DNA of 63,334 nucleotides, filler included, from Octopus bimaculoides (lineage: Eukaryota): NCBI RefSeq assembly GCF_001194135.2. It is 6 parts of 5 records of this genome, joined end to end, with 100 filler letters (N's around TTAATTAATTAA, not from the genome) between each part and the next. Parts side by side here need not be neighbours in the genome. Positions count along the whole stretch, not along the records: positions 1 to 13,372 come from NC_068992.1; positions 13,473 to 21,469 come from NC_068990.1; positions 21,570 to 44,240 come from NC_068988.1; positions 44,341 to 50,210 come from NC_068982.1; 2 more parts are not named here. One strand, 5' to 3'. Position 1 is the stretch's first letter. Every line of letters begins with the position of its first letter. The notes beneath the pieces are model-generated. The model was not told the origin of the DNA, did not search any database, and was given only the letters and a program-made list of their open reading frames with translations. Positions 3,089-47,349 of this stretch are shown here, piece after piece. The position numbers were made by a program, and so were the translations under genes.

Positions 3089-3158
3089 ACAGTACTGATG
3101 AAGGAAATTGATTATTAATTGTTAATTATTAATCATAATCCTGAAACGCGTCTGCTGT
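3089..3158 (+). ncRNA. Minimal type I hammerhead ribozyme, intact core
   Basis: Stem I acagta(3089-94)/tgctgt(3153-58); CTGATGA 3095-3101; stem II AGGA/TCCT with an AT-rich inner hairpin; GAAA 3143-46; palindromic stem III ACGCGT; GUC cleavage triplet ending at 3152. Confidence 0.85.
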
Positions 3159-4729
3159 TAATCATCTGAATTGGTTAGTTTTTCATTGTTTTTTCTTCTT
3201 GTTTTTACCTTTGTAAGTTACAAGTGATGCTATCTGTGAGATTCTCAGCTTTTTTAGCTGCTATTTTCTGAACTTCGGTATATGGTGAAGCAAATATTTT
3301 GCTGATCCCTTAATTATATTTATAAATATATGAGCTTTTGAATAAGTTCTCCACCAATAATGGTGCTTTCATACCGATGGGCTTGGTAAAAATTATTAAT
3401 TGNNNNNNNNNNNNNNNNNNNNNNNNNNNNNNNNNNNNNNNNNNNNNNNNNNNNNNNNNNNNNNNNNNNNNNNNNNNNNNNNNNNNNNNNNNNNNNNNNN
3501 NNNNNNNNNNNNNNNNNNNNNNNNNNNNNNNNNNNNNNNNNNNNNNNNNNNNNNNNNNNNNNNNNNNNNNNNNNNNNNNNNNNNNNNNNNNNNNNNNNNN
3601 NNNNNNNNNNNNNNNNNNNNNNNNNNNNNNNNNNNNNNNNNNNNNNNNNNNNNNNNNNNNNNNNNNNNNNNNNNNNNNNNNNNNNNNNNNNNNNNNNNNN
3701 NNNNNNNNNNNNNNNNNNNNNNNNNNNNNNNNNNNNNNNNNNNNNNNNNNNNNNNNNNNNNNNNNNNNNNNNNNNNNNNNNNNNNNNNNNNNNNNNNNNN
3801 NNNNNNNNNNNNNNNNNNNNNNNNNAGAGAGAGAGAGAGAGAGAGAGAGAGAGAGAGAGAGAGAGAGAGAGAGAGAGAGAGAGAGAGAGAAAGAAAGAGA
3901 TAGATAGACAGACAGACAGATAGCTAGATAAATAGAGAAGGAGACCGACAGAGATGCTTCGATCAGTATATAAAGGCGTTTGTACAGAATTATGTTCGCT
4001 GGGAGTATAAAATACCCTCCAGGACAAAACACATTTTTCTGGTTTCACAGCAACTCTAGGTCTCCAGAAGTTATTGACAAATATTACAGGATGAGAGACA
4101 ATATTGAATCGACGCAAATCTCTTAGGTTCGGCAAAATACTGAAATCATTTTGATGCAAACTGATTGGTTAAAACTATTGATTTTCGTACGCTTTACTTG
4201 TTAAATGCATTTCGGTTTTCGTGTCTCTTAGATATGCTTTTTACTCACAATTTCTTAAGTGGCATGCATCGACTTTTGCGTTGATTTGACACTAGCAAAA
4301 TTCATCAGAATCTGAATAAGTTTATCAGTGACAACAGAGCGTTTCATACATACATACATACATACATACATACATACATACATACATACATACATACATA
4401 CATTCACACACACATACATAATACATACATATGTGTATATATGTGTGTGTGCGCGTATGCATACCACTTAAGACATTTCGTATGTAAAAGGCATATTTTG
4501 GGACATGAAAGACAAAATACATTTAATAAGCGTAACGTGCAGAAAGCAATATATTTATATGTATACATACATTCATATATAAATACATACATATATATAT
4601 ATATATATATATATATATATATATATANNNNNNNNNNNNNNNNNNNNNNNNNNNNNNNNNNNNNNNNNNNNNNNNNNNNNNNNNCACACACACACACACA
4701 CACACACACACACACACACACCCTGATGC

Positions 4730-5235
4730 AATAGCAGGCAGTGGCTCTCATGGCTTCTGATCTTAACTGATTGGAAGTGTGATCATATACGTGTTATCAT
4801 GTCCATGGTGTAAAAGATGGTCTACAGAAAATATTCAATAGCACAGATTTGCTTGTCAGTTGCTTAACATTAACCAGTTGAACATGTCCCTTGGTGTCTG
4901 ACAGCATGTGCATCTCTGATCACAAGCAGAAGTAGCGGGGGGAGCAGCATAACCATGTGCTGAGAGGGATTTTTGGGGTTTGAATAATTCAACCTGGGAA
5001 ACATGAGTGTTTCATTCATCATCCTCAAATAAGACTTACCCAGGGGCTTATTGAGCTGGAGGGGTTACTCGACCTGAAGAAAACTCTATGTGGGCTTCAC
5101 CTGCAAGGTCATACGCTGTTTATCTTGATGTGAGAACACTATGTGATGCATACACCTGGTGTTCTCCAGTCAGACGGGGTAGTCGTGATTGGTATACTGG
5201 GCTTTGTATATTTGTAGGCCAGTATATTTGTAGTC
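4730..5235 (+). mobile_element. Dispersed non-coding repeat (retro-derived family); second fragment at about 6545-6610
   Basis: tttggggtttgaataattca.c..tggaaacatgagtgt is shared between 4971-5012 and 6570-6607. Family identity is from recognition only. Confidence 0.55.
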
Positions 5236-5299
5236 ACTTTGGTGTCAAGCGGTGGTGGGGAAGAAACACACACACTCTCTCTCTCTCTCTCTCTCTCGC

Positions 5300-5465
5300 T
5301 CACATTTATACGTAGGGTTTCTATCAGTTTCCAACTACCAAATACACTTGCAAAGTTTTGGTCGGCCGGAGGTTATAGTAAAAGATATTTGCCCAAGGTG
5401 CCACGCAGTTGGACTGAACCCGGAAGCATGTGGTTGGGAAGCAAGTTTCTAGCCACGCAGCCATG
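5300..5465 (-). mobile_element. tRNA-derived SINE (family B); other copies at 6335-6480 +, 10815-10965 -, 17685-17850 +, 41445-41610 +, with 3' body pieces at 22310-22500 - and 43255-43530 -
   Basis: Shared head gtggctgtgtggtaagtagcttgc...ggttcagtcccactgcgtggcaccttgggcaa...tatagcctcgggccgacc, with A/B-box-like motifs, in several copies. Confidence 0.85.
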
Positions 5466-46454: not shown

Positions 46455-46910
46455 TAGACATTTTTGGCGATCTAGTGGGGGAAGTTAACAATGGCGTCAT
46501 TCTCTTTGATTTTCTAGCATGTGGCTGTACTGTGGACAGCGAATGTAACATTGAAGCATTCAAAGAGAAACCATTACAAGGAAGAAAACGTAACAGAATC
46601 TGAAAACTATCCTCTTTTATCGCCACAACTCATCATTATACACATCTTTGGCAACAAATCCCGTAATCGGTGAAGTGAGATGATCAGTGGTCTTTCATCT
46701 ACCACACACCTCGGGCCTGGTAACCTCCGATATCTACTAGTCTAATGAAAGTCAGTCTTGAGGGATAAAGATCTGATGGCATAGACGAAGTTAAATCGGG
46801 TGTGAGAGAGTAGAAACAAGAGTGTACACCTGAATTTTTTCAAAAGAAATTCAAGTGTTAGGTTCAACGATGGCTCAAATGTATCGCTTGTGGTGGAGAT
46901 TATGCTTAGT
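46455..46910 (+). mobile_element. Highly decayed mariner transposase (DD34D region)
   Basis: GVILFDFLACGCTVDSEC...RKR, then ILFYRHN..., HLPHTSGLVTSD and a KCIACGGDY-like terminus across frames. Confidence 0.7.
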
Positions 46911-47067
46911 AGGAAATTTGTATCGAAAAAGCGTTACCCTACCAACATGTAATAATAACTTGAACGATCTGTGTAAGTTTAAGAAAATTACACTGACTTT
47001 GTGTTACTTTCGGGATAACCCGAATGTATACAATATACATTCTCTCTCTGTTTATTTTCTCGTGTTC

Positions 47068-47103
47068 CTTTCTGTTGAAGAGCATAGGCTCGAAACGTAA
47101 AAG
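47068..47103 (+). ncRNA. Minimal hammerhead variant with CUGUUGA core
   Basis: cttt-CTGTTGA-a-GAGC-atag-GCTC-GAAA-C-GTA|aaag. Confidence 0.6.
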
Positions 47104-47312
47104 TCTTTCTCATCTTCCCGAGCGTCAAACTAATATACCTACTTGTTGTTTATATACCTGTCTTCGTCTCTTGCTTGTCTGTAAATTTCAACTAATTTAT
47201 ATATATATACATTTATATATATGGGAGAATATACAAATAATAACAACAGAAGAGGACAGGTGGTGTAAATAACAAAAGTATATATTAGTATGACGCTCGG
47301 GAATACGGAAAG

Positions 47313-47349
47313 TCTTTGACGTTTCGAGCTACGCTCTTCAACAGAAAGA
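47313..47349 (-). ncRNA. Minimal hammerhead variant with CUGUUGA core
   Basis: tcttt-CTGTTGA-a-GAGC-gta-GCTC-GAAA-C-GTC|aaaga. Confidence 0.62.

What the first reader, a model, noticed from the sequence alone, without database searches (positions are those of the whole stretch)
3089..47349. At least four families of dimer-type minimal hammerheads in one 63-kb window, mostly detached from coding elements
Canonical intact cores: 3089(+), 22841(-), 26022(+). Variant cores: 47068(+), 47313(-). Decayed: 860/909, 2869, 13322, 25864, possibly 8262. The families differ in stem II (AGGA/TCCT; T-CGG/CCG-T; A-GGCTG/CAGCC; A-GAGC/GCTC), yet all keep a palindromic or pseudo-palindromic stem III (ACGCGT, ACG-T-CGT, ACGT). 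If this density is typical, the genome holds a very large reservoir of non-autonomous ribozyme-bearing retroposons (retrozyme-like), possibly yielding small circular RNAs. Two decayed Penelope RT/GIY-YIG elements in the window show a plausible mobilising machinery existed. Hammerheads in Penelope elements are known; this non-autonomous diversity in a cephalopod-like genome may be undescribed.
Basis: partly seen in the sequence, partly recalled or inferred. Interest (0 to 1): 0.72.

Follow-up and report, generated by a model that had tools for sequence, protein, structure and literature searches.

The report
Penelope stumps and one hammerhead retrozyme
The hammerhead motifs are real: most are broken-off ends of protein-coding Penelope-type jumping genes, a known pattern, but two belong to a 565-base protein-free unit that likely borrows those genes' enzymes, and one coding family carries a tRNA-like piece that likely acts as its promoter.

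Summary
The motifs are real: 4 canonical and 2 variant type-I minimal hammerheads, against 0.01 and 0.25 in shuffles. The window is six stretches, and the hits lie on three contigs. One genome-wide pattern gives 18,305 matches against 26 controls.

Walking upstream in the genome splits the families:
- 26022/25864, 47068 and 36712 are 5'-truncated ends of coding Penelope/Poseidon-, Neptune- and Hydra-like elements.
- 3089 and 22841 are two related ORF-less units of about 565 nt that wrap end-to-start and fold as rods (retrozyme type).
- 860/909/13322 lack stem I and are unrelated to 22841.

Multiple families, solo copies, inverted pairs and palindromic stem III are all published (PMC4209133), as is retrozymes as non-autonomous Penelope derivatives (bioRxiv 2026). 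The least ordinary feature is a tRNA-derived segment between ORF stop and hammerhead in the 26022 family; 26 of 29 head-bearing copies start at it. This scan noted that before on other DNA; I confirmed it in a full tandem copy. RNA reads show no ends at cleavage sites and no proof of circles.

The parts
3042..3401 (+). Family D: part of an ORF-less, circularly permuted unit of about 565 nt; cut by an assembly gap
   Evidence: 98% to L088; end-to-start junction
3089..3158 (+). Family D hammerhead: canonical core, 6-bp stem I, extended stem II, 6-nt palindromic stem III, GUC site
22843..23229 (-). Family B: ORF-less unit of about 563 nt homologous to D; 22843-23108(-) plus an inverted arm 23106-23229(+)
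22841..22902 (-). Family B hammerhead: canonical core, U-U at the base of stem II, pseudo-palindromic stem III, GUA site
25752..26144 (.). Family A insertion: head-to-head pair of 5'-truncated ends of a coding Penelope/Poseidon-type element, one-sided tail on the left arm, 13-bp duplication at 25752 and 26132; truncated in the (AAT)n, so no tRNA head here
26022..26067 (+). Family A hammerhead, intact: bulged A between core and stem II, 4-nt palindrome, GUC site
25864..25909 (-). Family A hammerhead on the inverted arm, stem III pair broken
41351..41440 (+). Family A tRNA-like head plus (AAT)n without the hammerhead part
   Evidence: 90% to L254
36494..36809 (-).
47039..47209 (+). Family C: 3' stump of a coding Neptune-type element; hammerhead 47068-47103 with U at core position 6
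47203..47390 (-). Second C subfamily (76-83% to the first), tail-to-tail across a TA-rich patch, likely an independent insertion; hammerhead 47313-47349
2869..2960 (+). Decayed C-related hammerhead: canonical first box, stem I lost, G at the cleavage position
   Evidence: 70% over 80 nt to 47068, E 8e-4
8255..8320 (+). Decayed copy (C3 changed) of an old family whose other copies show a canonical minimal hammerhead
850..940 (.). Family H fold-back (860-/909+): both core boxes and a short stem II, no adjacent stem I; not a type-I hammerhead
13300..13365 (-). Decayed relative of family H
   Evidence: aligned with the H loci
35228..36155 (+). Old decayed Penelope-like RT thumb plus GIY-YIG remnant (Neptune-type linker); opposite strand to 36712, not its parent
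54010..55915 (+). Second decayed Penelope-like remnant (RT 54010-54470, linker/GIY-YIG 55605-55915), split by an inverted-repeat insertion at 54452-55577

Best explanation
The hammerheads are terminal-repeat ribozyme motifs of several Penelope-like retroelement lineages: families A, C and E are 5'-truncated ends of protein-coding elements, and families B and D are one lineage of ORF-less 565-nt units that is likely copied in trans by Penelope-like enzymes. Mechanism: (1, inferred from PMC11167929) the element's RT/GIY-YIG protein nicks AT-rich DNA and starts reverse transcription at fixed internal sites downstream of the hammerhead. (2, shown as scars) cDNA synthesis usually stops early or folds back, leaving solo 150-600-nt stumps, head-to-head pairs, a one-sided 30-35-nt tail and target duplications or (TA)n flanks; the hammerhead survives in most stumps because it lies near the start site. 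(3, shown) in B/D the fixed end continues into the unit's own beginning, so the template was longer than one unit: a tandem transcript or a circle (not distinguished). (4, inferred) the short palindromic stem III would allow cleavage only as a dimer or with protein help, so solo copies are likely inactive passengers. (5, structure shown, function inferred) in family A a tRNA-derived segment between the ORF stop and the hammerhead likely acts as an internal Pol III promoter for the next copy in tandem arrays and for short SINE-like copies.
For: A to coding element: L357 is endonuclease end - head - (AAT)n - hammerhead - broken ORF - head - hammerhead, period 2,484 nt; 3 of 29 head-anchored loci run into the ORF. 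A scars: 18 of 22 inverted pairs have one long and one short end, 3 short/short, 1 gap, 0 long/long; 12 of 22 have an 11-20-nt direct duplication against 0 of 462 mismatched flank pairs. Head: all 20 tRNA invariant positions in 29 of 34 head matches, shuffle mean 7.0, maximum 16 of 10,000 (I chose the register by eye from recalled tRNA numbering); 26 of 29 copies end within 10 nt of its first base; 2,735 exact heads against 513 that extend 18 nt further up. C: 2 of 30 loci continue into a GIY-YIG with a CxxC-type linker, one of them (L045) without a gap. E: nested 5' ends; 6 of 20 upstream-anchored loci were translated and show a GIY-YIG without the internal cysteine pair. B/D: junction in 10 of 24 B and 5 of 25 D loci; 70 exact D junctions genome-wide, control 0; in the 20 fetched, the aligned flanks are the unit itself (3 begin at the junction), up to about 1.35 units; longest ATG frame 34 and 48 aa; 58% global identity, score 147 against -51 +/- 16; circular fold z -6.7 and -4.6; ends abut (TA)n-type repeats.
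Against: No mobiliser was found for B/D: no similarity to four coding-element ends, 0 of 60 further ORF 3' ends contiguous with any of the families, and Penelope-like protein hits in only 3 of 70 B/D loci, all on the opposite strand. The one-sided tail was not tested for B/D. Only 2 of 30 C loci reach the ORF and most C copies share one 5' boundary, so C may include a non-autonomous subfamily. Neither ARAGORN (0 in 12 loci) nor Rfam calls the head a tRNA; the best phage match is weak (E 2). The head-anchored sample was selected for full-length heads, and the within-head drop-off control is missing. Clade names rest on motifs, not trees. No cleavage assay.
Confidence: 0.82

Rival explanations
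1. All families are autonomous-free retrozymes that live as small circular RNAs.
For: B/D wrap end-to-start, fold as rods and sometimes carry two hammerheads one unit apart (L088, 558 nt). D-like RNA coverage runs across the junction without a listed loose end.
Against: A, C and E are contiguous with coding elements. Tandem second copies are rare: 0 of 30 A loci, 1 of 30 C loci at 1.4 kb, 0 of 24 B loci, 3 of 25 D loci. In three RNA runs 89-91% (A) and 71-76% (D) of laid reads run on into unlike sequence, and no place has piled starts or ends.
Confidence: 0.07
2. B/D spread only as linear tandem transcripts of an internally deleted Penelope-like element, with no circular stage; the hammerhead and rod are inherited baggage or a protein-binding fold.
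For: Partial tandems and pseudo-LTRs are normal for these elements and for their non-autonomous forms (PMC8557442). Hammerhead mutants did not affect insertion in vitro and no read ends were seen at the site (PMC11167929). 8 of 9 frog dimers did not cleave (bioRxiv 10.64898/2026.07.22.740005). This rival differs from the best explanation only on step 3.
Against: The rod fold and an intact hammerhead are kept in two families only 58% alike; both halves are intact in 10 of 25 D and 15 of 24 B copies.
Confidence: 0.5
3. Family A copies are plain truncation products; the tRNA-like piece is an old SINE fragment trapped in the 3' UTR, and 5' ends pile there because reverse transcription stalls or folds back at a short palindrome.
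For: A short palindrome spans the head's first base in the coding element and many junctions are fold-backs. Many copies end downstream of the head start: of 30 tail-anchored loci, 11 have a full head, 7 partial, 7 none, 5 are gapped. Head stems are degraded.
Against: Promoter-box positions are all kept while stems decay. The head sits just upstream of the next ORF in the tandem copy. 14 of 30 head-anchored listings were tagged with no inverted copy by the test used (15 of 30 tagged), so fold-back does not explain all ends.
Confidence: 0.3
4. Chance motifs in AT-rich repetitive DNA.
For: Rfam does not call them.
Against: Shuffles 0.01 against 4; 18,305 against 26 reversed-pattern controls; compensating stems in unrelated families.
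Confidence: 0.01

Closest known systems
Minimal type-I hammerheads in pLTRs of metazoan Penelope-like elements (Cervera and de la Pena 2014, PMC4209133; parts 1-2 of 4 read)
   Same: Several sequence families per genome, mostly single motifs ascribed to truncated elements, pairs 100-700 bp apart on opposite strands, unpaired base between positions 9 and 10.1, palindromic stem III, thousands of copies.
   Different: No cephalopod in the text read; a family-wide U6 core (family C) and a U-U stem II base (family B) are not in the parts read.
Penelope/Poseidon elements, e.g. PAc of Anolis (Frangieh et al. 2024, PMC11167929; parts 1-2 of 4 read)
   Same: Hammerhead next to the ORF start, two reverse-transcription starts in an AC-rich stretch giving a 30-40-nt tail, tandem pLTR-ORF-pLTR layout (family A, L357).
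   Different: Family A has a tRNA-derived segment and (AAT)n between ORF stop and hammerhead.
Neptune and Hydra clades (Craig et al. 2021, PMC8557442; passages)
   Same: C-terminal GIY-YIG, (TA)n targets, inverted 5'-truncated arms; CxxC linker (C) and no internal cysteine pair (E).
   Different: Assigned here by motif only.
Metazoan non-LTR retrozymes (PMC7229834, passages; bioRxiv 10.64898/2026.07.22.740005, parts 1-3 of 5)
   Same: ORF-less, AT-rich, one type-I hammerhead per unit, self-paired predicted circle, size within the reported 51-972 bp, many monomers, proposed Penelope-like origin (families B/D).
   Different: B/D are 565 nt (170-400 nt in the cases with circles shown), rarely reach two hammerheads, have PLE-style motifs without evident loop-loop contacts; circles not shown.
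Schistosome Sm-alpha/Sj-alpha SINE-like elements (second-hand, passages of PMC6765202)
   Same: Pol III-type promoter followed by a hammerhead.
   Different: Those are non-coding tandem repeats; here the head is part of a coding element's terminal repeat.

Membership tests
Type-I minimal hammerhead (PLE type) | Both core boxes, stems I and II, UH site | tested here: met
   3095, 22896, 26027, 36712; 47072 and 47344 met except U6
Type-I minimal hammerhead (PLE type) | Same features for 860/909/13322 | tested here: not met
   No stem I beside the cleavage site in the family alignment
Type-I minimal hammerhead (PLE type) | Short palindromic stem III favouring dimers | tested here: met
   4 of 5 exact palindromes, 0-2 monomer pairs
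Type-I minimal hammerhead (PLE type) | Self-cleavage | not testable with these tools
   No read-end pile-ups in three unstranded runs; weak test
EN+ Penelope-like element (families A, C, E) | End contiguous with an RT/GIY-YIG ORF | tested here: met
   A; C; E (endonuclease end only for C and E)
EN+ Penelope-like element (families A, C, E) | Inverted 5' arm and one-sided tail | tested here: met
   Counted for A only: 18 of 22 pairs; inverted arms seen in E
EN+ Penelope-like element (families A, C, E) | Clade by RT phylogeny | not tested
   Motifs only; Pfam gave just a weak GIY-YIG hit (E 0.07) for 1 of 4 fragments
Non-LTR retrozyme (families B/D) | Non-coding unit, one type-I hammerhead per unit, head-to-tail continuity | tested here: met
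Non-LTR retrozyme (families B/D) | Two or more consecutive units with hammerheads | tested here: inconclusive
   One clear two-hammerhead copy (L088) in 25 D loci, none in 24 B loci, none in 20 junction loci; gappy assembly
Non-LTR retrozyme (families B/D) | Highly self-paired predicted circle | tested here: met
   67-68% paired, z -6.7 and -4.6, 30 shuffles each
Non-LTR retrozyme (families B/D) | Circular RNA in vivo | tested here: inconclusive
   Coverage across the junction but most reads run into other sequence
tRNA-derived SINE (family A short copies) | tRNA-like head with A and B boxes at the 5' end | tested here: met
   not called by ARAGORN or Rfam
tRNA-derived SINE (family A short copies) | Independent non-autonomous family with a LINE-derived or poly-A tail | tested here: not met
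   The head is part of the coding element's repeat and the scars are Penelope-type
tRNA-derived SINE (family A short copies) | Pol III transcription | not testable with these tools
   The head region was skipped by the read-laying tool

The most novel reading that the evidence does not exclude
One genome holds two routes from Penelope elements to ribozyme-bearing parasites. A coding Penelope/Poseidon family captured a tRNA gene as a Pol III promoter, which drives its ORF in tandem arrays and spawns thousands of SINE-like copies of its own tip. An older 565-nt ORF-less lineage (B/D) keeps a rod fold and dimer hammerhead across 58% identity because it cycles through a circular RNA that Penelope-like enzymes copy round more than once.
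Probability: 0.25. Interest if true: 0.7.

Novelty: new variant of a known kind. Interest (0 to 1): 0.4.

Why it matters
The headline (many hammerhead families, mostly solo) is expected for a genome rich in Penelope-like elements. Two pieces would matter if confirmed. A tRNA-derived promoter inside a coding element's terminal repeat would be a Pol III-driven retroelement and a direct route to SINEs that depend on Penelope rather than LINE enzymes; I did not find it in the listings. The B/D units are young (91-99% identical copies), have a fixed insertion end and a conserved fold, so they suit a test of the open question whether animal retrozymes are copied from circles by Penelope-like enzymes.

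Tried and rejected
Rfam and ARAGORN: no hammerhead or tRNA call. Pfam on 272 window frames found only integrase pieces and noise; nothing on six read-through frames. The repeat finder on the whole window was swamped by gaps and microsatellites. I first read 23300-23900 and the region after 3089 as decayed endonuclease; rejected, as there is no protein match there and 23106-23229 is an inverted arm. The ORF before family E in L146 is a chance neighbour: 1 of 20 upstream-anchored loci has it, and that family has its own U3-A8 hammerhead. I first read family A as an independent SINE; changed. Search for a B/D partner: none. The look-up of sequencing runs: no RNA holder listed. The RNA runs laid come from a coded organism with fixed differences from the reference, appear unstranded, and about 6% of each was read. 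Unconstrained cofolding gave non-hammerhead pairings and is not used. No earlier finding matched the D unit by sequence. Lunse et al. (dimer cleavage of such variants) is not held; seen only as a citation. Ohshima and Okada 1994 (octopus tRNA retroposons) was seen only as a reference and may cover the family A head. Repbase and Dfam could not be searched; supplements of PMC8557442, PMC4209133 and the preprint were not opened and may list these families or the U6 core.
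Full report
Setting. The window is a pack of six stretches; the three with hits lie on G000 contigs C12, C8 and C2 of a 2.34-Gb animal genome.

Observation. A descriptor scan found four canonical type-I minimal hammerheads (cores at 3095+, 22896-, 26027+ and the unlisted 36712-) and two with U at position 6 (47072+, 47344-); shuffles gave means of 0.01 and 0.25. 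Stem III allows 0-2 pairs as a monomer and is palindromic in 4 of 5 families. 25864 is the inverted arm of 26022; 2869 and 8262 are decayed members of related families. 860/909/13322 keep both boxes but no stem I, like the 'HHR_core' class of PMC8557442. Genome-wide, one pattern covering mainly families A and C gives 18,305 matches against 26 controls; family-specific exact patterns give 1,237 for A and 979 for C. First-look candidates were 2,205 (A), 3,993 (C), 452 (B), 1,576 (D) and 1,544 (E), lower bounds and not copy numbers. The window has 3 hits of the genome-wide pattern where about 0.4 are expected, so it is richer than average.

Family A (26022/25864). The window insertion is a head-to-head pair inside a 13-bp duplication. 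Across loci, 18 of 22 such pairs have the longer end on one arm only and none on both; 12 of 22 have duplications of 11 nt or more, against 0 of 462 controls. This is the tail-and-inversion signature described in PMC8557442 and explained in PMC11167929. Upstream of the hammerhead lie (AAT)n and a 76-nt tRNA-like head; 25 of 30 head-anchored loci continue into the hammerhead-bearing part. Earlier notes said the head belongs to a coding element, and I tested that: 3 of 29 loci run on into an RT/GIY-YIG frame whose stop lies about 40 nt before the head, and L357 is a full tandem copy with a period of 2,484 nt and a broken ORF. The other 26 stop within 10 nt of the head's first base. The commonest cleavage triplet is GUU (43 of 63), GUC is 6 of 63, and 44 of 63 cores are intact.

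Families C and E. C copies are about 200 nt and end in TA-type repeats; 2 of 30 continue into a GIY-YIG with a CxxC linker. U6 is the family state, not decay; its effect is unknown (A6C impairs Mg-dependent cleavage, PMC7151607). The 47068/47313 pair is tail-to-tail and 76-83% alike, likely two insertions. E copies have nested 5' ends. A second search with upstream sequence reached a GIY-YIG frame lacking the internal cysteine pair, ending roughly 0.8 kb before the hammerhead, which fits the Hydra clade.

Families B and D. Walking upstream returns to the unit's own 3' end: periods are 563 and 565 nt; the D junction occurs 70 times exactly, and 20 fetched loci show only unit sequence in the aligned flanks, up to about 1.35 units. 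There is no ORF. B and D are homologous, end at a fixed point followed by TA-type repeats, often carry inverted arms and fold as long rods. This fits non-LTR retrozymes as non-autonomous Penelope-like derivatives. No partner was found.

Expression. In three RNA runs of a possibly different species, family A tails drew 5,581-7,426 and D units 657-843 of 11.5-12.9 million reads, equally on both strands. Most reads run on into unrelated sequence, and no place has piled starts or ends. D coverage is continuous across the junction, where DNA contig depth steps about tenfold; the tool warns that such depth is a poor measure, so this is a hint only. The simplest reading is passenger transcription inside host RNAs.

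Local remnants. Relatives of the first are only 65-74% identical, against 91-99% among the best hammerhead-family copies, and neither is attached to a listed hammerhead.

Papers seen. PMC4209133 parts 1-2 of 4; PMC11167929 parts 1-2 of 4; bioRxiv 10.64898/2026.07.22.740005 parts 1-3 of 5; passages of PMC8557442, PMC7229834, PMC6765202, PMC6962438 (235 hammerhead-1 loci in giant squid), PMC10886601 and PMC7151607; others as search listings only. No supplements.

Verdict. Real and abundant, and mostly a known phenomenon. The tRNA-derived segment of family A is the variant worth a bench test, and B/D is a new retrozyme-type member.

Noticed in passing
   Followed up: yes
window 41351-41440 (+): Family A tRNA-like head and (AAT)n followed directly by another repeat, without the hammerhead part.
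   Followed up: partly
L166:2583, L165, L174 (family L160-L187): An abundant coding Neptune-type family carries a hammerhead with the U3-A8 core covariation described in PMC4209133.
   Followed up: partly
window 58460-59626 (-): Broken LTR-retrotransposon integrase region (Pfam rve, Integrase_H2C2).
   Followed up: no
window 54452-55577: Insertion with 338-nt, 96% inverted arms around a gap, splitting the second Penelope-like remnant.
   Followed up: no
window 31300-32200 (-): Decayed frames resembling the C-terminal part of a LINE (recalled resemblance to RTE-type).
   Followed up: no
window 56441-57427 (+): Two consecutive open frames of 134 and 194 aa without a Pfam match, resembling a retroelement ORF1 (recalled).
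   Followed up: no
window 30819-31245: Array of about 20 copies of a 21-nt unit.
   Followed up: no
window 14545-15262, 17902-18110, 22077-22231, 24686-25107, 26280-27180: Many diverged copies of one dispersed SINE-like repeat.
   Followed up: no
L344:1988-2392, L075:346-581: Hydra-like endonuclease fragments lie near 2 of 70 B/D loci, on the opposite strand; a weak lead for the mobiliser.
   Followed up: no
window 23350-23740 (-): Another old dispersed repeat (about 70% to relatives) upstream of the 22841 element, with no Penelope-like protein match.
   Followed up: partly
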